Shown here: positions 1,658-19,577 of the stretch, piece by piece
Position numbering within the stretch: the first letter of the stretch is position 1
Layout: the number at the start of each line of letters is the position of its first letter
Virus record (IMG/VR): IMGVR_UViG_2671180460_000010
Span: 1-19,577 of that record
Source: a virus
Taxonomy: Duplodnaviria > Heunggongvirae > Uroviricota > Caudoviricetes
Reading direction: 5' to 3' (one strand)
Length of the DNA: 19,577 bases
Made by a program: the position numbers and the translations under genes
The notes under the pieces: generated by a model
The model's input: the letters and a program-made list of their open reading frames with translations, nothing else
Databases searched by the model: none
Told to the model about the DNA's origin: nothing

Positions 1658-4114
1658 TTAAAAATCAGCCTGATTCGGGATCAGTTTTTGCCAGATAGCT
1701 GAAACGTATTTTGCCTGGTGGCGGGCATCATCCAGTGCATTATGGCGCTCACCTTCGAATGGAATAGCCGTTCTGGCATCGAAGTCTATAGCTTTCCCCA
1801 GCTCAACGATTGTGCGTACATCGCGATCGTTGTAGTAACGCCACGGGCAGGGGATCCCCTGCCGTTCGTATGAACGGCGCAAAATCGTGTTGTCGAAGTT
1901 GGCTCCATTTCCCCAGACCTGAACAAAAAATTCACCGGAGTTTTCGTCGATAAATTCTCGCAATTGTAACAGTGCATCATCTAACGGGATTTCATCGGTC
2001 ATAATGGCAGATTGCGCTTCGCGTGATTGCTTCAGCCACCATTTAATGGTGTCCCGATCAATGACTCCGCCAGCAGTTTCCAGATCGATAGTCTTACTAA
2101 ATTCCGGTCCCATATCTCCGGTTTGCGGATCGAAAAATATTGCACCTATTGAGATAATCGGGGCATCAGGATTTTTTCCCATGGTTTCGAGGTCGATCAT
2201 TAGATGGTCACACGTCCTGCTGGTGGATGTGATTTCGTGATGACCGTTCACCTTAATTGAGTGATCTGCCGCCTCGCCAGTTTCATTATCGCTGGCGTGG
2301 TCCTGAGCGCTGCCAGCATTCTCCTTGTGTGGATGTTCAGCGCCTTCCATTTCCTCCGGATCATTTTCCTGAACTTCAACCTGATTCTCTTCATCGAATG
2401 TTTCCAGGTATGTTGCGTCGCCCATCACCGCGCCACAATCAGGGAAGTTGCCGCTGCCGGTCTGACCGCAGACGGTGCAAGCTTTTTCCGGTTCCTGTTG
2501 CGCTGCTGGTTCATGTTGTTTCGTTTCTGGCTCGTTTTGTAACGCATTTGGGCTGTTTTGTTCCGCTTTCTGGTCGTTCTGTTCCGTTTCTTGCTGGTTC
2601 TGATTCACTGAATCGCGGGTTTCAATCCCCTTCACCCATTTCGGATCATTCGGGTCGCTAATCCCTGCAACAAATTCACCGCGAGAGGCCGCAAGCAACT
2701 TATCGGCGTCAGGCTGGCCGATATTGGCTGCCTGCATAATTTTGTTTACTTCGTCAGCGGTAACTTTCACCTGATTAACTGGATCTACCTGTTCCTGAGT
2801 ATCCAGCGATTGCGTGTCCTGGCGATGTTCAGTTGTATCCGGTTCCATTGTTTCAGCCGTTGCCTGTTCATCTGCCAGTACGCCAGACGGTTGCGGTTTT
2901 TCTTCATCATTTTTTTCTTCTTCTGTTTCTTGCCCGGCAGCCAGCTCGCGGTTAACTTCTTCCAGGATATCTTTTTCCGGTGTATGTCGTGCAGCAGTGA
3001 GAGTTTCCTTGCTGGGGTTCTCGTGATCAGTCTCCGTTAAGTAGGCGTTGATATACCCCTGAAGGCGTCCCGGGTAATGATAAAATTCAGGGTGTGCGCT
3101 CCGGATAAGCGCAAAAATAGCGGCGCGGGAATAATCCAGGATACCCGGGATTGCGCGAAGTGCTGCGGACCATTCTTTGAACGGGCTTTCTTTCTTCCGG
3201 ACGACTTCTTTTGCGCGACGATAAACGCTGCCCGGAATTTCATAAATATTAAAATCCATCGGAAGTGTGGCCGCTGCAATCTCCACATCCAGCGTATCGA
3301 AGGTGTGTACTAAATTAGGATTGCGATCGGTTTTGTTCCCTCCACCGGCATTAGCACCGGAAGCCGTGCGGGTAATGCGTGAAACACGATTTCCTTTCAT
3401 CCACTCTTTTGTCAGCAGACCGCGATCGGTGTAGTCAGCGCCCAGGTATGCTTCGAAAAAAGCAGTCATCAGTCCCAGGTCTGAATTACCAGGATTAGGG
3501 AAAACTTTGTCCGTGTCACGAACCAGTTTGTGGAGATCGCGAATTTCCAGCGGTTCGAGTTGCGCTGCTTTATTTGAGATGGCCAGAGCGGTAACGGCGG
3601 GAAGTTTTTCATCCTGTGCGTTATGTAATGCGCGCAGTTCGTCCCGCGAAACGTGTGTGATCGGTTTTTCGCTGCCGTGCTGTGCCAGCCATCGAACAGG
3701 CAGAATCTGACCTGAAACCGGCAGGAGCATGTTCTCCTCAATCTCCGTCATGTCTTCGCCGTTGACGTTGGTATTGTCAGTGCTGGCTGGTTTGTCCTGC
3801 GCAGAGTGAGAGGTCTCAATAAATACCATTGTTATACCATCTTCCCCGCCTTTTTCGTATCGATTGCAGAATTCGGTATCAAACACGCCTTCCGGAGGAA
3901 GGTCATTCACAATGGGTAAATGGACGCGAACAGGTTTTTTAAAATCCTCTTCGTCAAATCCGGCATCGTCCATTGCGACAACACCGCGTGATATTGCAAC
4001 CGATAATTTTTTTGCTGTGCGCCAGTAAAAACCGCCTTTAATCCCAAGGCGTTTTCTGACTTTGTCATTTTTGGCTTCGTAATATAGTGCAATTTCTTCT
4101 TTATCAGCGCTCAT
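1658..4114 (-). CDS. Large phage protein with C-terminal DnaQ-like DEDDh 3'-5' exonuclease domain (often annotated exodeoxyribonuclease VIII-like); long acidic/Gln-rich central linker
   Basis: 818-aa ORF with GAGG RBS 7 nt upstream of the ATG at 4114. The C-terminal ~180 aa carry Exo I (MIDLETMG), Exo II ([12 protein letters not shown]) and Exo III (HNALDDARH) motifs. The central ~250 aa are low-complexity E/Q/D/T-rich. Position matches the recombination-gene slot of lambdoid phages. Confidence 0.75.
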
Positions 4115-14122: not shown

Positions 14123-14344
14123 GAAGGAAACAAACAGAAACAACAATTGCCGTTATCTGTTGCCACCAATGACAAGTAAACGTATCTCAGGCGAGCGCAT
14201 TGCGCCGTTCTGACGCGGATACATTAGCCTGGGCAGAAGGTTCTGGCAATAAAAAATAGCGTTTTCTTATCGGTGTCGGTAAGATTGTTGCGGGTGCTTG
14301 AGGCTGTCTGCCTCGGGCATGCCACTGTAAGGCAGACAGAGAAA

Positions 14345-14447
14345 AGCCCCAGTTAACATCACGCGTCCTGCAAGACGCTTAACATTAATCTGAGGCTCAA
14401 TCCATGCTGAACACATGTAGGTTAGCCTCTTACGTGCCGAAAGGCAA
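14345..14447 (-). ncRNA. Putative Sok-like antisense RNA and its promoter (type I antitoxin)
   Basis: Minus-strand promoter: -35 TTGCCT (plus coords 14442..14447), 17-nt spacer, -10 TAACCT (14419..14424). The architecture mirrors the R1 sok promoter, which sits antisense to the hok leader. The 3' end is not defined. Confidence 0.35.
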
Positions 14448-14460
14448 GGAGAAGCAGGCT

Positions 14461-14616
14461 ATGAAGCAGCAAAAGGCGATGTTAATCGCCCTGATCGTCA
14501 TCTGTTTAACCGTCATAGTGACGGCACTGGTAACGAGGAAAGACCTCTGCGAGGTACGAATCCGAACCGGCCAGACGGAGGTCGCTGTCTTCACAGCTTA
14601 CGAATCTGAGGAGTAA
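14461..14616 (+). CDS. hok: Hok/Gef-family type I toxin (51 aa)
   Basis: MKQQKAMLIALIVICLTVIVTALVTRKDLCEVRIRTGQTEVAVFTAYESEE is a near-match to the Hok/Gef family (HokD/RelF-like). The leader GGTGCTTGAGGCTGTCTGCC...AAGGAGAAG parallels the hok mRNA fold-back elements. The in-frame upstream extension from 14404 may correspond to a mok-like translational coupling frame. Confidence 0.85.
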   Translation: MKQQKAMLIALIVICLTVIVTALVTRKDLCEVRIRTGQTEVAVFTAYESEE

Positions 14617-15025: not shown

Positions 15026-15511
15026 ATGGCTGAGATTGTTGAAGGAGTGCACTACCTCTCGGTTGATGATCTTACTGAAATCAATCGCCTTTTAATTGAG
15101 CTTCAAACACCAGATGAACCTGTTGGTGTGCTGAGTGTTGATAATTTAAGTTCTTCTCAGTCTCGTCCCAGTATGGTTCGATGGTATGAGCAAACCAACG
15201 ACATGTTTGTACTGGCATCGGTATTGATTGAAAGTCTGATTCAGAATCATCCATTTGCCAATGCAAACAAGCGCACAGCAATGATGGCTGGTGCGGTTTT
15301 TTTATTGTTAAATGGATACGAATTAACCGCGCCAGGCGATGAAGTTGTGGAGATGGCTGAGGGGCTGGCCTGTAAAATTTATACACGAGAAGAGCTTGAA
15401 AATTGGTTGTGTTATTGGTCTCGTGCGTATGACAGTCGGGAATTATGTAAAACAGGCGCAACTATTGTTTTGTATGAAACGATCAAGCTTAAAATAGAAC
15501 AGCAAAACTAA
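15026..15511 (+). CDS. doc: Doc/Fic-family toxin (death-on-curing-like)
   Basis: Motif HPFANANKRTAMMAGAVFLLLNGY matches the Doc signature HxFx(D/N)ANKR. An alternative TTG start lies at 15017. Confidence 0.8.
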   Translation: MAEIVEGVHYLSVDDLTEINRLLIELQTPDEPVGVLSVDNLSSSQSRPSMVRWYEQTNDMFVLASVLIESLIQNHPFANANKRTAMMAGAVFLLLNGYELTAPGDEVVEMAEGLACKIYTREELENWLCYWSRAYDSRELCKTGATIVLYETIKLKIEQQN

Positions 15512-15900: not shown

Positions 15901-16947
15901 GTGCGGGTATTACTTCGACCTGTTCCGGTACCGGAACTTGGGCTGGTGGTGCTAAAGCCGGGCCGTGAATCCATGCAGGTATTTCATAACCCTCGAGTGC
16001 TGGTGGAGCCGGAACCGAAAAGCATGCGTGGTCTGCCGTCCGGAGTTGTTCCTGCCGTTCGCCAGCCGCTGGCGGAAGATAAATCATTACTGCCATTTTT
16101 CAGCGATGAGCGGGTGATTCATGCTGCTGGCGGCGCTGGTGCACTGTCTGACTGGTTGTTGCGTCATGTCAAATCCTGCCAGTGGCCTCATGGTGATTAC
16201 CATCACAGCGAAACCGTCATACATCGTTACGGCACCGGCGCGATGGTGTTGTGCTGGCACTGCGACAACCAGCTGCGTGACCAGACATCCGAATCACTTG
16301 AGCAACTTGCTCAACAAAACCTGACAGCATGGATGATTGACGTCATCCGTCACGCAATAAGCGGTGCGCAGGAGCGTGAATTATCGCTGGCTGAATTATC
16401 CTGGTGGGCTGTCTGCAATCAGGTGGCGGACGCACTACCGGAGGTAGTATTACGTCGTTCTCTGGGGTTACGTGCGGAAAAAATCCGCTCGGTGTACCGC
16501 GAAAGCGACATCATTCCGGGAGAGCAGGCAGCCGCCAGCATACTGAAGCAGCGCACAAAAAATCTTGCGCCGCTGCCTCACGCCCACCAGCAAAACCCAC
16601 AACAGGAAAAGACGGTGGTCAGCATTGCCGTTGATCCGGACGCTCCGGAATCTTTCATGAAACGACCTAAACGTCGCCGCTGGGTGAATGAGAAATACAC
16701 GCGCTGGGTAAAGACACAGCCGTGTACGTGTTGTGGTAAGCCAGCCGACGATCCCCATCACCTGATTGGTCATGGTCAGGGCGGAATGGGGACAAAAGCC
16801 CACGATATTTTTACGTTGCCGCTGTGCCGGGAACATCACAATGAACTTCATGCAGATCCGCAGGCGTTCGAAGAAAAGCATGGTTCTCAGGTTGATTTAA
16901 TTTTTCGTTTTCTTGATCACGCCTTTGCAACTGGCGTACTCGGATAA
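15901..16947 (+). CDS. YdfU-like prophage protein (DUF968-like C-terminal Cys/His domain)
   Basis: GTG start with GGAGG RBS 6 nt upstream. C-terminal CTCCGKPADDPHHLIGHGQGGMGTKAHDIFTLPLCREHHNELH. Position upstream of rusA and Q parallels Qin-type prophages. Confidence 0.65.
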   Translation: MRVLLRPVPVPELGLVVLKPGRESMQVFHNPRVLVEPEPKSMRGLPSGVVPAVRQPLAEDKSLLPFFSDERVIHAAGGAGALSDWLLRHVKSCQWPHGDYHHSETVIHRYGTGAMVLCWHCDNQLRDQTSESLEQLAQQNLTAWMIDVIRHAISGAQERELSLAELSWWAVCNQVADALPEVVLRRSLGLRAEKIRSVYRESDIIPGEQAAASILKQRTKNLAPLPHAHQQNPQQEKTVVSIAVDPDAPESFMKRPKRRRWVNEKYTRWVKTQPCTCCGKPADDPHHLIGHGQGGMGTKAHDIFTLPLCREHHNELHADPQAFEEKHGSQVDLIFRFLDHAFATGVLG

Positions 16948-16959
16948 AAGAGGTTACTG

Positions 16960-17319
16960 ATGCGTATAGAGTTTGTTTTGCCTTACCCGCCGACGGTGAA
17001 CACTTACTGGCGACGTCGTGGCAGCACATATTTTATATCGGAAGCCGGTAAGCGTTATCGCCGTGATGTGGCACTTATTGTTCGCCAGCAGCGGCTGAAA
17101 TTAAACCTGTCCGGAAGGCTGGCGATAACGGTTATCGCAGAGCCGCCGGATAAACGCCGTCGTGACCTGGACAATATCCTGAAAGCACCGCTGGATGCGT
17201 TGACGCATGCGGGACTGCTTATCGACGACGAGCAGTTTGATGAAATCAATATTGCGCGCGGTCAGGTCGTTCCCGGTGGGCGGCTGGGCGTGAAGATTTA
17301 CAAAATTGAAAGTGAGTGA
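16960..17319 (+). CDS. rusA: Holliday junction resolvase RusA
   Basis: 119 aa with AGAGG RBS. Characteristic LPYPPTVNTYWRRRG and DKRRRDLDNILKAPLDAL motifs (catalytic Asp cluster). Confidence 0.85.
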   Translation: MRIEFVLPYPPTVNTYWRRRGSTYFISEAGKRYRRDVALIVRQQRLKLNLSGRLAITVIAEPPDKRRRDLDNILKAPLDALTHAGLLIDDEQFDEINIARGQVVPGGRLGVKIYKIESE

Positions 17320-17870
17320 GCGTAAATATGATATACCCGGAAATTACAGGCAAAAGCGGTGAGCATTTACGCCTGAAAACGCTGGAAAGTGTCTGGCTCC
17401 AGGGGAAACTGCGTATGTGGGGGCGTTGGTCGTATATAGGTGGTGGCAAAACAGGAAATATGTTCAATCAGTTGCTGGCATCCAAAAAACTGACAAAAAC
17501 CGCGATCAATGAAGCCATGCGCAAAATCAGGGAATCAGGGATTGATAAACCTGAACTGGAAGCATTCTTGCGAGAGATGATCGCTGGCAGACAGAAGAGC
17601 TGGCTGTCTCACTGTACTGATGCAGAGGCGTTACGCATTGATGGGGTGATAAGTAAAGCGCTCGCAAGTTATCCTGGATTGATTGATATCCTGCGGCAAC
17701 GGTACGAAGGGCGGGGGATGAGTAAACGAAAAATGGCTGAATTGTTGAATGAGGTTCACCCTGAGTGGTGCTATGCAACATGCCGCAATCGTATAGATAT
17801 GTGGCTGAGAATAGCTGAGTTTATTCTATATCCACTGATGCGAGATGCATTTTCTTTTACTGACGCTTAG
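17316..17870 (+). CDS. Putative late-gene antiterminator (Q-like) by position
   Basis: 184-aa ORF directly after rusA (GTGA overlap; alternative ATG at 17328) and directly before a promoter-plus-terminator unit resembling PR'/tR'. Family assignment is not confirmed by motif. Confidence 0.45.
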   Translation: MSVNMIYPEITGKSGEHLRLKTLESVWLQGKLRMWGRWSYIGGGKTGNMFNQLLASKKLTKTAINEAMRKIRESGIDKPELEAFLREMIAGRQKSWLSHCTDAEALRIDGVISKALASYPGLIDILRQRYEGRGMSKRKMAELLNEVHPEWCYATCRNRIDMWLRIAEFILYPLMRDAFSFTDA

Positions 17871-17947
17871 AGTCTGGAGGGCGTTTGTTGTTGTACGAAG
17901 CGGATTTCTGGTTGGTGGCAAGGCTTATGCAGTTTTTAGAAAAAAGC

Positions 17948-17976
17948 TTGTATTTTTAGCCATAAACTGTTTTAAT
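17948..17976 (+). promoter_or_regulatory. PR'-like late promoter candidate
   Basis: TTGTAT (17948..17953), 17-nt spacer, TTTAAT (17971..17976), about 60 nt upstream of a strong terminator. Confidence 0.35.
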
Positions 17977-18035
17977 CCAGCTAAGCTTCGCAAAGCTGTA
18001 CCGCTAGGCGAATAGCAGACATGGACATTTGAAAG

Positions 18036-18060
18036 AGCCCGCTTTATGCGGGTTTTTTTA
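18036..18060 (+). terminator. Rho-independent terminator (tR'-like) downstream of the Q-like gene
   Basis: AGCCCGC-tttat-GCGGG followed by TTTTTTT. Confidence 0.75.
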
Positions 18061-18182
18061 TGCCTGAAAAACGGTACAGGACGTTAAACGCGCTGATGGT
18101 TGCGAATACCGGTCTTTCAGCTTGCTGGCTTTTTCGACAAGAGCTATTGGTATGTCACGTTAACCAGAAAAGGAAAAAAGAC

Positions 18183-18380
18183 ATGCTAAAACAGCAGGAT
18201 ATGACCGAAACTGCCAGAGTGGTGTTTAATGAATTAAGCGTCACCGAACCGGCGACCGTCGGGGAAATTGCGCAGAATACTTACCTTTCACGCGAACGCT
18301 GCCAGTTAATACTGACCCAGCTTGTTATGGCGGGTCTGGCAGATTATCAGTTCGGTTGTTACAGACGCCTTCCGCAGTGA
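18183..18380 (+). CDS. Small hypothetical protein, possible winged-helix DNA-binding (66 aa)
   Basis: Internal Met start (MLKQQDMTETAR) with AAAGGAAAA RBS, chosen because the upstream part of the ORF overlaps the terminator. Segment TVGEIAQNTYLSRERCQLILTQLVMAGL resembles a recognition helix context. Confidence 0.4.
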   Translation: MLKQQDMTETARVVFNELSVTEPATVGEIAQNTYLSRERCQLILTQLVMAGLADYQFGCYRRLPQ

Positions 18381-18530
18381 AGGCTTTTTAATTTGTGGTA
18401 ATGGGCGGCTGGTGGGTGTTAGCGGCACCTGCCAGCCATCTGCTCATGCGTTGGGGTCACAAGCAAACCTCAGGCCCATCTGCTTTGCGCAAAAGCGGTA
18501 TGAGCCTATCAGAGAAGTGCTTATTGATCT

Positions 18531-19577
18531 ATGGCTAATACTGTAAAAATATCCAGTTGTGAGTTAATCAACGCTGATTGCCTGGAATTTATCCGGACCT
18601 TACCGGAAAACTCCGTCGATCTGATAGTCACAGACCCGCCATACTTTAAAGTGAAGCCCGAGGGCTGGGATAACCAGTGGAAGGGCGACGCTGATTACCT
18701 GCAATGGCTGGACCAGTGTCTTGCGCAGTTCTGGCGGGTATTAAAACCCGCCGGAAGTCTTTACCTGTTCTGTGGTCATCGCCTGGCATCTGATACCGAA
18801 ATCATGATGCGTGAACGCTTTAATGTACTGAACCACATTATCTGGGCGAAGCCGTCCGGACGCTGGAACGGGTGCAACAAGGAAAGCCTGCGGGCGTATT
18901 TCCCGGCAACAGAGCGCATTCTGTTTGCTGAACATTACCAGGGGCCATACCAGCCCAAAAATGACGGTTATGCAGCAAAGGGGCGCGAGCTTAAGCAACA
19001 CGTCATGGCACCGATGATTTCTTACTTTCGTGATGCGCGGGAATCACTGGGGATAACGTCGAAACAGATAGCGGAAGCCACCGGAAAGAAAAACATGGTT
19101 TCGCACTGGTTTGGTACCAGTCAGTGGCAGTTACCGAATGAGGCCGATTACAGTAAACTGCAGGCGCTGTTTGCACGTGTGGCGGCAGAAAAACACCAGC
19201 GCGGTGAACTGGAGCAGCCACACCACCAGCTGGTCAGCACATACAGCGAACTGAACCGGCAATATGTCAGCCTGCTGGAGGAATACAAATCACTGCGGCG
19301 TTATTTTTCCGTATCGGCTGTCGTTCCTTATACGGATGTCTGGACGCACAAGCCCGTGCAGTATTATCCGGGCAAACATCCCTGTGAAAAACCGGCGGAT
19401 ATGTTGCGTCAGATAATTACTGCCAGCAGCCGTCCAGGCGATTTGGTCGCAGATTTTTTTATGGGGTCAGGTTCCACGATAAAAGCGGCACTGTTGCTGG
19501 GACGCAGGGCGATTGGCGTGGAACTGGAAGAGGAACGTTTTAATCAGACGGTCAGAGAAATAACGAAAGATTTTTAA
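18531..19577 (+). CDS. DNA methyltransferase, N6-adenine/N4-cytosine (DPPY) type, beta-class motif order
   Basis: Motif IV DPPY near the N-terminus (DLIVTDPPYF) and motif I FxGxGxT near the C-terminus (DFFMGSGST). Complete 348-aa ORF ending at the window edge. Confidence 0.9.
   Translation: MANTVKISSCELINADCLEFIRTLPENSVDLIVTDPPYFKVKPEGWDNQWKGDADYLQWLDQCLAQFWRVLKPAGSLYLFCGHRLASDTEIMMRERFNVLNHIIWAKPSGRWNGCNKESLRAYFPATERILFAEHYQGPYQPKNDGYAAKGRELKQHVMAPMISYFRDARESLGITSKQIAEATGKKNMVSHWFGTSQWQLPNEADYSKLQALFARVAAEKHQRGELEQPHHQLVSTYSELNRQYVSLLEEYKSLRRYFSVSAVVPYTDVWTHKPVQYYPGKHPCEKPADMLRQIITASSRPGDLVADFFMGSGSTIKAALLLGRRAIGVELEEERFNQTVREITKDF

What the first reader, a model, noticed from the sequence alone, without database searches (positions are those of the whole stretch)
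18183..19577. Small winged-helix-like gene and a DPPY DNA methyltransferase at the head of the late region
The methyltransferase is complete and sits where lambdoid phages carry late-region cargo. No restriction endonuclease is visible upstream, so within this window it looks orphan, and phage orphan methyltransferases can protect against host restriction or act epigenetically. The small DNA-binding-like ORF upstream could be a controller-like regulator. What lies downstream is beyond the window.
Basis: partly seen in the sequence, partly recalled or inferred. Interest (0 to 1): 0.4.

Follow-up and report, generated by a model that had tools for sequence, protein, structure and literature searches.

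The report
Phage late-operon non-specific adenine methyltransferase
This is a prophage copy of the already characterised M.EcoGII-type enzyme, which methylates adenines in any DNA context and is thought to hide new phage genomes from restriction enzymes; with it come a small winged-helix gene and a strongly conserved RNA leader, found in no Rfam family, that may help keep this toxic enzyme off until the phage goes lytic.

Summary
Both ORFs are real and lie at the stated coordinates: a 65-aa winged-helix ORF (18183-18380) and a complete 348-aa DPPY/FxGxG beta-class methyltransferase (18531-19577). They follow a Q-like antiterminator and an intrinsic terminator.

The methyltransferase is about 85-86% identical to M.EcoGII, the characterised non-specific adenine methyltransferase. 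[quoted passage not shown] So a recognition motif is unlikely to exist.

It is an orphan. The source contig continues with tRNA-Gly and non-coding DNA. Relatives continue with tRNAs, cargo (stx2, TerB) and lysis genes, never an endonuclease.

The same two-gene module is annotated in phiP27 and SfV and occurs in many Stx2 phages. It matches about half of complete E. coli genomes.

The controller-protein reading is not supported. The small protein has a generic winged-helix fold and unknown function (phrog_331), and it is missing from about a third of genus-level relatives.

One feature is new as far as these tools show. A ~131-nt non-coding leader directly upstream of the methyltransferase is 84% conserved, against 44% at adjacent fourfold-degenerate sites. 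It has no Rfam match. It is predicted to pair with the 11 nt before the AUG, and it is preceded by a covarying terminator-like hairpin. It probably helps silence the gene.

The parts
17316..17870 (+). Q-like late antiterminator gene (DUF1133). It lies upstream of the finding and defines the late-operon context.
   Evidence: Pfam DUF1133 at 1.9e-100 and Phage_antitermQ at 26.2 bits (cut-off 26). PHROG 753, 'anti-termination protein Q-like', at 1.8e-77.
17948..17976 (+). Candidate late promoter pR': -35 TTGTAT (17948-17953), a 17-nt spacer, and an extended -10 TGtTTTAAT (17968-17976). This is inferred only.
   Evidence: Read from the sequence. The consensus scan did not call it. The stretch is shared only with relatives that have the same Q type; homology with phages that have other Q types starts at the terminator.
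18037..18059 (+). tR'-like intrinsic terminator: GCCCGC-UUUAU-GCGGG followed by U7.
   Evidence: RNA fold of 18000-18070: -24.8 kcal/mol, z = -3.8, 0 of 200 shuffles as stable. In 28 relatives a hairpin plus U-run with a different stem sequence sits at the same position.
18121..18158 (+). Conserved block in the 5' leader of the small ORF (relatives: CTTGCTG-N10-ACCAGAGTTATCTGTATGTCAC). Role unknown.
   Evidence: Alignment of 28 loci from many genera. No sigma-70-like promoter was called here.
18183..18380 (+). Small winged-helix protein gene (65 aa; phrog_331, function unknown).
18367..18394 (+). Terminator-like hairpin (GCCUUC-CGCAGU-GAAGGC) plus a U-rich tail. It overlaps the stop codon of the small ORF and forms a second barrier before the methyltransferase.
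   Evidence: Terminator scan. The fold is not more stable than shuffles in the window itself (z = -0.5). The equivalent hairpin in relatives covaries, e.g. CG/UA/UG/GC at three stem pairs. In loci without the small ORF the position is taken by a strong terminator.
18400..18530 (+). Conserved, structured, non-coding leader of the methyltransferase. Predicted helices:
- long hairpin 18401-18447, which contains a Chi octamer at 18408-18415;
- domain 18455-18529, whose outer helix (18455-18464 with 18519-18529) pairs the 11 nt directly 5' of the AUG;
- alternative helix 18439-18444 with 18462-18467, which contains the covarying pair 18441/18465.
   Evidence: - Conservation: 84% mean pairwise identity, against 44% at fourfold sites and 90% at codon positions 1+2 of the adjacent gene.
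- Stability: fold of 18386-18535 is -61.9 kcal/mol, z = -3.6.
- Pairing: 95.6% of cells paired, against 28-41% when partners are slid.
- Covariation: pair 18441/18465 reads CG22/AU9/UA6/UG4, with 0 of 500 shuffles reaching the score.
- Not coding: frame-breaking indels.
- No Rfam match at E <= 1.
- Linkage: the leader motif is followed by the methyltransferase at 128-131 nt in 110 of 114 viral contigs.
18531..19577 (+). Orphan beta-class N6-adenine DNA methyltransferase, an M.EcoGII orthologue (348 aa).
   Evidence: Pfam N6_N4_Mtase at 3.6e-44. 86% identical to M.EcoGII by BLASTP. By global alignment: 85% to M.EcoGII overall, 82% in the target-recognition region, 87% to Anc291 and 72% to SUPREM. 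Closest solved structures are beta-class adenine methyltransferases. PADLOC finds MTase_II models only.

Best explanation
Identity and layout
- The region holds the first two genes of a lambdoid prophage's Q-dependent late operon.
- The large gene is an orphan, beta-class N6-adenine DNA methyltransferase of the M.EcoGII family. Members of this family methylate adenine in essentially any sequence context.

Likely sequence of events
1. In the lysogen, transcripts from the late promoter stop at the tR'-like terminator (18037-18059). Any read-through meets a second hairpin with a U-run (18367-18394).
2. The methyltransferase has no Shine-Dalgarno sequence. The 11 nt before its AUG are predicted to be paired within a conserved 131-nt leader. 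The toxic enzyme therefore stays off.
3. After induction, the Q-like protein (17316-17870) makes RNA polymerase resistant to terminators. The small winged-helix gene and the methyltransferase are then transcribed together with the tRNA, cargo and lysis genes.
4. Replicating phage DNA becomes heavily adenine-methylated. Progeny genomes are then protected from type I, II and III restriction systems in the next host.

Shown versus inferred
- Shown here: gene identity, orphan status, gene order, the terminators, conservation of the leader, and linkage of the parts.
- Inferred: non-specific activity (from 72-87% identity to enzymes tested by others), Q-dependent timing, the anti-restriction role, and the translational role of the leader.
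- The role of the small winged-helix protein is unknown. It is a frequent but dispensable partner.
For: Family membership
- Pfam N6_N4_Mtase with DPPY before FxGxG.
- 86% identity to M.EcoGII over the full length.
- 82% identity in the target-recognition region.
- 87% identity to Anc291 and 72% to SUPREM. The SUPREM paper reports M.EcoGII and these variants as largely non-sequence-specific on RNA and measures DNA methylation rates for them.

Biology of the family
- M.EcoGII is prophage-borne, unexpressed in the lysogen and toxic. Its authors propose that it defeats restriction (the review is).
- Murray et al. name phage 1720a-02 as carrying a very similar enzyme. That locus has the same small ORF, leader and methyltransferase.

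Orphan status
- The source contig continues with tRNA-Gly(TCC) and non-coding DNA.
- Relatives continue with tRNAs, then stx2 or TerB, then holin and endolysin genes.

Late-operon position
- A Q-like gene lies upstream.
- The tR' hairpin is significantly stable, and the hairpin at this position differs in stem sequence across genera while staying a hairpin.
- No sigma-70-like promoter is called on the + strand between tR' and the methyltransferase, here or in a Kluyvera relative.
- A second, covarying hairpin lies upstream of the leader.

Leader
- Under purifying selection.
- Not coding.
- Predicted to pair with the translation-initiation region, in the window's own minimum-energy fold and in relatives.
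- Several predicted pairs are G-U in most sequences, which fits a structure on the + (mRNA) strand only.

Linkage
- 110 of 114 viral contigs have the methyltransferase 128-131 nt after the leader motif, and 108 of 112 have the small ORF upstream.
Against: - No activity or expression data exist for this particular gene.
- The M.EcoGII and ancestral sequences were taken from a machine-read PDF table with visible reading errors. The identities are therefore approximate.
- The promoter is only a weak consensus match, and the scan did not call it.
- The second hairpin in the window is not more stable than shuffled sequence (z = -0.5).
- Most helices of the leader are invariant and so cannot be tested by covariation. 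The only strongly covarying pair belongs to a helix that competes with the helix pairing the initiation region.
- The leader contains a Chi octamer, and the whole window is Chi-rich. Part of the conservation could therefore act at the DNA level.
- M.EcoGII-modified plasmid DNA transforms E. coli very poorly. The net benefit of heavy methylation to a phage is therefore not self-evident.
Confidence: 0.8

Rival explanations
1. The enzyme is a sequence-specific orphan methyltransferase that acts epigenetically in the lysogen, like Dam or CcrM. This would make the first reader's motif search meaningful.
For: Beta-class relatives such as CcrM, M.RsrI and M.MboIIA are site-specific. The site-specific M.PflMI shares the overall predicted fold with M.EcoGII.
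Against: The gene is 85-86% identical to M.EcoGII, and 82% in the recognition domain. It also keeps the region between domains without gaps; this is the stretch the SUPREM authors describe as a charged linker that M.PflMI lacks. M.EcoGII and M.EcoGI leave no signal in the lysogen's methylome. The gene lies behind two terminators with no promoter of its own called.
Confidence: 0.07
2. The methyltransferase is half of a restriction-modification system whose endonuclease lies beyond the window.
For: The window ends at the stop codon, so the window alone cannot exclude this.
Against: The exact source contig continues for 794 nt with tRNA-Gly and non-coding DNA. Five annotated relatives have tRNAs, cargo and lysis genes downstream. 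PADLOC finds only methyltransferase models.
Confidence: 0.02
3. The small winged-helix protein is a Com-like activator. It would bind the leader RNA, open the helix that hides the methyltransferase start, and so time translation, as Com does for mom in phage Mu.
For: - The architecture is parallel: a small nucleic-acid-binding ORF, then a structured leader pairing the initiation region, then a toxic DNA-modifying enzyme that is silent in lysogens.
- The spacing is fixed at about 150 nt, and co-occurrence in viral contigs is near-universal.
- Two relatives carry a 79-aa zinc-ribbon ORF at the same position.
- The one covarying pair supports an alternative conformer that would free the start.
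Against: - At least 12 Enterobacterales loci keep the leader and methyltransferase without the small ORF.
- M.EcoGII is active when expressed alone.
- There is no sequence relation to Com.
- The fold is generic, and most neighbours are DNA-binding repressors.
Confidence: 0.15
4. The small protein is a DNA-binding transcription regulator, or an unrelated moron gene. It would be controller-like in the loose sense, acting on its own upstream block or on host genes.
For: The best structural neighbours are ArsR/MarR/BlaI-type repressors. Pfam gives a weak TrmB match. A conserved block with a CAGA-N4-TCTG inverted repeat lies upstream of the gene in relatives. The gene is bracketed by two terminator-like hairpins.
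Against: No promoter was called upstream. The inverted repeat is degenerate in the window itself. The protein is not the XRE-type fold of C proteins, and there is no R gene. At 65 aa it has no obvious dimerisation element.
Confidence: 0.3
5. Conservation of the 131-nt leader reflects a DNA-level role, such as a recombination linker between phage modules or a Chi hotspot, rather than an RNA structure.
For: A Chi octamer lies inside the leader, and the window holds 8 Chi sites against 0.56 expected from shuffles. In one locus the methyltransferase was replaced with a breakpoint inside the leader. Most predicted helices do not vary.
Against: Conservation covers all 131 nt across at least 12 genera, at the level of non-synonymous sites. 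G-U pairs make the structure specific to one strand. One pair shows four Watson-Crick or wobble types with no exceptions. The element keeps a fixed distance to the AUG.
Confidence: 0.2

Closest known systems
M.EcoGII (and its 95%-identical paralogue M.EcoGI) of E. coli O104:H4 C227-11 (Murray et al. 2018, PMC5778455)
   Same: Beta-class DPPY...FxGxG enzyme of 348-349 aa, about 85-86% identical, with a colinear alignment including the recognition region. Prophage-borne, an orphan, and expected to be silent in the lysogen.
   Different: About 50 substitutions, concentrated in the C-terminal third (75% identity there). Activity of this allele is untested. The published work does not describe the upstream small ORF, the leader or the terminators.
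phiP27 L23-L24, SfV orf47-orf48, and the 'hypothetical protein + DNA methylase' pair upstream of stx2 in many Stx2 phages
   Same: The same two genes, the same intergenic leader and the same position after Q and tR'. Nucleotide identity is 80-92%.
   Different: Those phages have other Q types and other downstream cargo (tRNA-Ile/Arg plus stx2e in phiP27; lysis genes directly in SfV). Here the downstream element is tRNA-Gly.
Phage Mu com-mom operon (my own knowledge for the Com mechanism; the parallel in silencing and toxicity is drawn in PMC12707154)
   Same: A late, toxic, broad-specificity DNA-modification gene that is silent in lysogens. It is preceded by a small nucleic-acid-binding ORF and by an mRNA structure covering the start site.
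   Different: There is no sequence or fold relation: Com is a zinc finger and Mom is not an amino-methyltransferase. The role of the small ORF here is untested, and it is dispensable in many relatives.
Controller (C) proteins of type II restriction-modification systems
   Same: A small DNA-binding-type ORF just upstream of a modification-related gene.
   Different: C proteins are XRE-type HTH dimers that control an R gene through C-boxes. Here the fold is a winged helix, no R gene exists, and no C-box-like operator is evident in the window.
Hia5 / Hin1523-type non-specific adenine methyltransferases of Haemophilus and Neisseria prophages (from memory; not checked here)
   Same: Prophage-borne adenine methyltransferases with very relaxed specificity, presumed to act against restriction.
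   Different: I recall them as a different sequence family. No comparison was run.

Membership tests
Beta-class amino (N6-adenine / N4-cytosine) DNA methyltransferases (Pfam PF01555) | Match to the family profile above the curated cut-off | tested here: met
   151.8 bits against a cut-off of 26.7, covering residues 29-340.
Beta-class amino (N6-adenine / N4-cytosine) DNA methyltransferases (Pfam PF01555) | Catalytic motif IV (DPPY) N-terminal, recognition domain central, SAM-binding motif I (FxGxG) C-terminal | tested here: met
   DPPY at residues 35-38 and FMGSG at 310-314. PDB matches split into an N-terminal and a C-terminal stretch around an unmatched middle.
M.EcoGII family of non-specific adenine methyltransferases | Close full-length sequence relationship to M.EcoGII, including the helix-turn-helix recognition domain and the linker between domains | tested here: met
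   86% identity by BLASTP; the only gaps are two single-residue ones that look like reading errors in the source table. 82% identity over residues 160-237. The reference sequence was machine-read from a PDF.
M.EcoGII family of non-specific adenine methyltransferases | Methylation of adenine in any sequence context | not testable with these tools
   Inferred only. Tested relatives at 72-87% identity (M.EcoGII, Anc291, SUPREM) are reported as largely non-sequence-specific.
M.EcoGII family of non-specific adenine methyltransferases | Prophage location, with no expression in the lysogen | tested here: inconclusive
   Prophage late-operon location is shown. Silence is inferred from two terminators and the lack of a called promoter. 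There are no expression data.
Type II restriction-modification system | A cognate restriction endonuclease gene adjacent to the methyltransferase | tested here: not met
   Upstream lie the winged-helix ORF and Q. Downstream on the source contig lie tRNA-Gly and non-coding DNA. Relatives have tRNAs, cargo and lysis genes.
Controller (C) proteins | XRE-type helix-turn-helix protein of about 80 aa | tested here: not met
   No XRE/HTH_3 Pfam match. The predicted fold is a winged helix with a beta-hairpin wing.
Controller (C) proteins | Controls an adjacent R gene through palindromic C-boxes upstream of its own gene | tested here: not met
   There is no R gene (see above). The only inverted repeat (CAGA-N4-TCTG in relatives) is degenerate in the window.
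TrmB family transcriptional regulators (the name given by NCBI annotation) | Match to the TrmB profile above the curated cut-off | tested here: not met
   18 bits against a cut-off of 25.6, E = 0.0026. No NCBIfam match. The name reflects a generic winged-helix resemblance.
Mu com-mom-type translational control | The start site of the modification gene is sequestered in an mRNA helix | tested here: inconclusive
   Predicted in the window's own minimum-energy fold and across 43 relatives (98% of cells paired in that helix). The helix does not vary, so covariation cannot test it.
Mu com-mom-type translational control | The small upstream protein binds the leader RNA and activates translation | not testable with these tools
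   No tool here addresses protein-RNA binding. The ORF is absent from at least 12 loci that keep the leader.
Any Rfam RNA family (for the leader) | Match to a curated covariance model | tested here: not met
   No match overlaps 18381-18530 at E <= 1. The only gathering-score hit in the window is sok at 14292-14466.

The most novel reading that the evidence does not exclude
The 131-nt leader (18400-18530) may be a cis-acting RNA switch not represented in Rfam that gates translation of a toxic, context-free adenine methyltransferase.
- One conformer pairs the 11 nt before the AUG.
- A competing helix, which contains the one covarying pair, would free them.
- The trigger could be the co-transcribed winged-helix protein (Com-like), the kinetics of antiterminated transcription, or feedback from the enzyme methylating adenines in its own mRNA (M.EcoGII is reported to methylate RNA).
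Probability: 0.3. Interest if true: 0.55.

Novelty: already known. Interest (0 to 1): 0.3.

Why it matters
The gene itself is ordinary. It is one more copy of a methyltransferase family that is characterised, sold commercially (my own knowledge), and present in roughly half of complete E. coli genomes. The practical message is that searching for a recognition motif is probably pointless.

What could matter is the control of the gene. M.EcoGII is widely used as a tool and is toxic to cells, yet how prophages keep it silent has not been described in the papers read here. This analysis points to testable elements:
- a double terminator;
- a start site with no Shine-Dalgarno sequence;
- a leader conserved like protein-coding sequence across at least 12 enterobacterial genera;
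- a tightly linked small winged-helix protein of unknown function.

In many Stx2 phages this module sits directly upstream of stx2 on the same late transcript. Any RNA element here also forms part of the toxin transcript's 5' region.

Tried and rejected
1. The 106-aa version of the small ORF (ATG 18060) is rejected. The ATG lies in the terminator U-run, SfV and 1720a-02 have 2-nt and 1-nt indels there, and M1-L2 of the short form are invariant.
2. A coding reading of the 150-nt intergenic region (74-aa and 47-aa ORFs) is rejected because relatives carry frame-breaking indels.
3. Rfam gave nothing for either leader. There were only sub-threshold terminator-driven hits at 17907-18061.
4. The RNAalifold consensus alone had a covariation term of only -0.74. 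I therefore built helices from per-sequence pair probabilities and tested two structures explicitly. Most helices remain untestable.
6. Sigma-70 promoter scans between tR' and the methyltransferase found none on the + strand. An independent promoter is therefore not supported, though weak or activator-dependent promoters are not excluded.
7. The first viral-contig scan with the small protein returned only loci encoding a protein 98-100% identical to it, which is useless for diversity. It was used for linkage only.
8. Known prophage sRNAs (AgvB, AsxR, StxS, Pas) lie elsewhere, either downstream of cargo or between pR' and tR'.
9. No structure was predicted for the methyltransferase. The allowed inputs excluded my locus-derived alignment, and the identification did not need it.
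Full report
**What is there**

The last 2.3 kb of the window reads as follows.
- A DUF968 gene (15901-16947) and RusA (16960-17319).
- A DUF1133 / Q-like antiterminator (17316-17870).
- A 190-nt gap ending in a strong intrinsic terminator (GCCCGC-UUUAU-GCGGG-U7, 18037-18059). The fold of 18000-18070 is -24.8 kcal/mol, z = -3.8.
- A 65-aa ORF (18183-18380) with a good Shine-Dalgarno sequence.
- A hairpin plus U-run overlapping its stop codon (18367-18394).
- A 150-nt gap.
- A 348-aa ORF (18531-19577) whose stop codon is the last triplet of the window.

The rest of the window is the early half of a lambdoid prophage. It holds an integrase, an excisionase, an ExoVIII-type exonuclease, a DnaC-like loader, hok/sok and a Fic gene.

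**The methyltransferase**

- It matches Pfam N6_N4_Mtase at 3.6e-44.
- DPPY lies at residues 35-38 and FMGSG at 310-314. This is the beta-class motif order.
- Its nearest solved relatives are beta-class adenine methyltransferases, which match only the two halves of the catalytic domain.

The decisive comparison came from the literature.
- Murray et al. (PMC5778455) describe M.EcoGII, a 349-aa prophage enzyme that methylates adenine in any context. They name phage 1720a-02 as carrying a very similar gene. That phage was among my nucleotide hits.
- The M.EcoGII sequence is printed in the supplement of the SUPREM paper (PMC11551740).
- It is 86% identical to the window's protein by BLASTP.
- By global alignment it is 85% identical overall, 95% in the N-terminal catalytic part, 82% in the recognition region (residues 160-237) and 75% in the C-terminal part.
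- The window's protein is 87% identical to the reconstructed ancestor Anc291 and 72% to SUPREM. That paper reports M.EcoGII and its variants as largely non-sequence-specific on RNA and measures DNA methylation rates for them.
- The table was machine-read and has visible errors, for example 'NHHIWA' where real homologues have 'NHIIWA'. The percentages are therefore approximate.

I conclude that this is an M.EcoGII orthologue and is very probably context-free.

**Orphan status**

An exact-sequence look-up placed the gene on NCBI contig LIVI01000003.1 (assembly GCA_001420065.1), 794 nt from the contig end. Those 794 nt hold tRNA-Gly(TCC) and no plausible ORF.

In annotated relatives the methyltransferase is followed by:
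- tRNA-Ile and tRNA-Arg, then stx2e, in phiP27;
- tRNA-Gly, TerB, DUF3927 and holins in an avian E. coli;
- tRNA-Thr, tRNA-Glu and holins in a rodent E. coli;
- a disrupted stx2A in 1720a-02;
- a terminator and the lysis cassette in SfV.

No endonuclease appears anywhere.

The module is common. It matches 51 phage records and 2739 of 5426 complete E. coli genomes. None of the E. coli matches listed exceeds about 94% nucleotide identity over the whole query.

**The small ORF**

- It is a real gene. Codon positions 1+2 are 80% identical against 51% at position 3 across 24 genera-level homologues.
- AlphaFold2 gives a confident canonical winged helix (pLDDT 91.5).
- It belongs to phrog_331, whose function is unknown.
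- It misses the TrmB cut-off that gives it its NCBI name.
- It has no NCBIfam match and no meaningful PADLOC match.
- Homologues were named only from Enterobacterales genera.

Linkage to the methyltransferase is tight in E. coli-type prophages.
- In 80 viral contigs that encode a protein 98-100% identical to the small protein, every locus with enough downstream sequence except two has the methyltransferase at a fixed 153-nt gap. That methyltransferase is only 86-97% identical.
- In 120 contigs found through the leader motif, 108 of 112 have the small ORF upstream.

Across species representatives the picture changes. Only 29 of about 46 methyltransferase loci have it. The others carry unrelated cargo or nothing at that position. 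It is therefore a frequent but dispensable partner.

It is not a C protein. The fold is wrong, there is no R gene, and the window has no clear operator.

**The unexpected part: the leader**

Aligning the 175 nt upstream of the methyltransferase start from 47 loci showed a ~131-nt block (window 18400-18530). It is nearly invariant from Escherichia to Rosenbergiella, Mixta, Kosakonia and Mangrovibacter, whether or not the small ORF is present.

- Conservation. Over 666 sequence pairs the leader is 84% identical. Fourfold-degenerate sites of the first 133 methyltransferase codons are 44% identical, and codon positions 1+2 are 90% identical.
- Not coding. One-nucleotide indels break every frame.
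- No Rfam family matches it at E <= 1.
- It is tied to the gene. The 20-nt motif ATGGGCGGCTGGTGGGTGTT is followed by the methyltransferase start 128-131 nt later in 110 of 114 viral contigs.
- It folds well (-61.9 kcal/mol, z = -3.6).

Per-sequence pair probabilities give two parts:
- a long hairpin (18401-18447);
- a second domain whose outer helix pairs 18455-18464 with 18519-18529, the 11 nt that abut the AUG.

No Shine-Dalgarno sequence lies within 15 nt of that AUG.

On the alignment, 95.6% of cells in this structure are paired, against 28-41% when partners are slid. Nearly all pairs are invariant, however, so covariation is uninformative (14 to 40 of 500 shuffles reach the observed values).

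The one clearly covarying pair is 18441/18465 (CG 22, AU 9, UA 6, UG 4, no exceptions). With it, 0 of 500 shuffles reach the observed covariation score. It belongs to a short helix (18439-18444 with 18462-18467). That helix is mutually exclusive both with the base of the first hairpin and with the helix covering the start region. This topology is what a two-state regulatory leader would show. That reading is an inference from one pair.

Several predicted pairs are G-U in most sequences. The structure, if real, therefore belongs to the + (mRNA) strand.

**Terminators**

- Immediately 5' of the leader there is always a hairpin followed by a U-rich run. Its stem covaries.
- In loci without the small ORF this is a strong terminator directly after Q.
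- Upstream of the small ORF, 28 loci from many genera all have a different-sequence hairpin plus U-run.
- No sigma-70-like promoter is called on the + strand between tR' and the methyltransferase, in the window or in a Kluyvera relative.
- Transcription of the methyltransferase therefore most likely depends on terminator-resistant polymerase from the late promoter. This is the scheme established for lambdoid late genes and for stx (PMC7547250).

**Mechanism, with its status**

| Status | Item |
|---|---|
| Shown | family membership; orphan status; gene order Q - terminator - small ORF - hairpin - leader - methyltransferase - tRNA; selection on the leader; linkage of the parts |
| Inferred, strong | context-free adenine methylation; expression only after Q action |
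| Inferred, moderate | anti-restriction benefit to progeny (proposed by Murray et al.; not demonstrated for any of these phages in the papers I read) |
| Hypothesis | the leader limits or times translation |
| Hypothesis | the small protein acts on the leader, by analogy with Mu Com and mom |

The review PMC12707154 pairs Mom with M.EcoGII as silent and toxic. The Com mechanism itself is from my own knowledge.

**Comparison and verdict**

The gene is a member of a known, characterised family, and the two-gene module is annotated in named phages. The finding as given is therefore already known, and of low to moderate interest. It is wrong in expecting a motif, and it is unsupported on the controller idea.

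The residual interest lies in the conserved leader and the double-terminator arrangement. These were not mentioned in any paper I read and match no Rfam family.

Noticed in passing
window 18400-18530: A ~131-nt non-coding leader upstream of the methyltransferase is conserved at the level of non-synonymous sites across at least 12 enterobacterial genera (84% against 44% at fourfold sites). It has no Rfam match and carries one pair (18441/18465) with four pair types. It is kept even where the small ORF is absent.
   Followed up: yes
window 2219, 8160, 14053, 15942, 15999, 18408 (+ strand); 16584, 19223 (- strand): Eight Chi octamers (GCTGGTGG) occur in 19.6 kb, against 0.56 expected from shuffles, and six are on the + strand. 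One lies in the 5' arm of the leader hairpin. Relatives have another in the small ORF's leader, where the window reads GCTGATGG (about 18091-18098).
   Followed up: partly
window 18121-18158; relatives: A conserved block lies about 25-60 nt upstream of the small ORF (CTTGCTG-N10-ACCAGAGTTATCTGTATGTCAC in most genera, with a CAGA-N4-TCTG inverted repeat). It is degenerate in the window. No promoter is called there, and its role is unknown.
   Followed up: partly
window about 17983-18059: If the candidate late promoter is real, a short transcript of about 77 nt would end at the tR'-like terminator. This is the same kind of by-product RNA as lambda 6S and StxS. Rfam gives only sub-threshold hits here (AgrB 24.6 bits, Trp_leader 23.3 bits).
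   Followed up: partly
L098 3558-3797 and L103 3558-3797: In Kosakonia sacchari, and in a contig labelled Vagococcus, a 79-aa zinc-ribbon ORF (three CxxC pairs) occupies the position of the winged-helix ORF, just upstream of the hairpin, leader and methyltransferase.
   Followed up: no
L018 3001-4048: One viral contig keeps the small ORF, the hairpin and the first ~55 nt of the leader. An AraC-family gene then replaces the methyltransferase. The breakpoint lies just after the first leader hairpin.
   Followed up: partly
window 14292-14616: A hok/sok type I toxin-antitoxin module: Rfam sok at 114 bits against a gathering score of 59, and a 70-aa HOK_GEF ORF at 14404-14616.
   Followed up: no
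window 15026-15511 (+): A 161-aa Fic/DOC-family ORF sits in the early-right region, between hok/sok and DUF968.
   Followed up: no
window 1658-4114 (-): An 818-aa ORF combines an N-terminal ExoVIII-like region with a C-terminal Rv2179c-like 3'-5' exoribonuclease domain. The integrase (20-1315) and a DUF1233 excisionase (1336-1587) lie beside it at the left end of the prophage.
   Followed up: no
L094, L103, L113, L129, L132 (genome contigs): Methyltransferase loci 78-97% identical to the window's occur in assemblies labelled Geobacteraceae MAG, Vagococcus, Chryseobacterium, Collinsella and Bacillus MAG. These are most likely contaminating or mis-binned enterobacterial contigs.
   Followed up: no
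L006 9265-9337 (271-343 nt past the window end): tRNA-Gly(TCC) follows the methyltransferase on the source contig. Relatives carry different tRNAs at this spot: Ile/Arg, Thr/Glu or Gly.
   Followed up: partly
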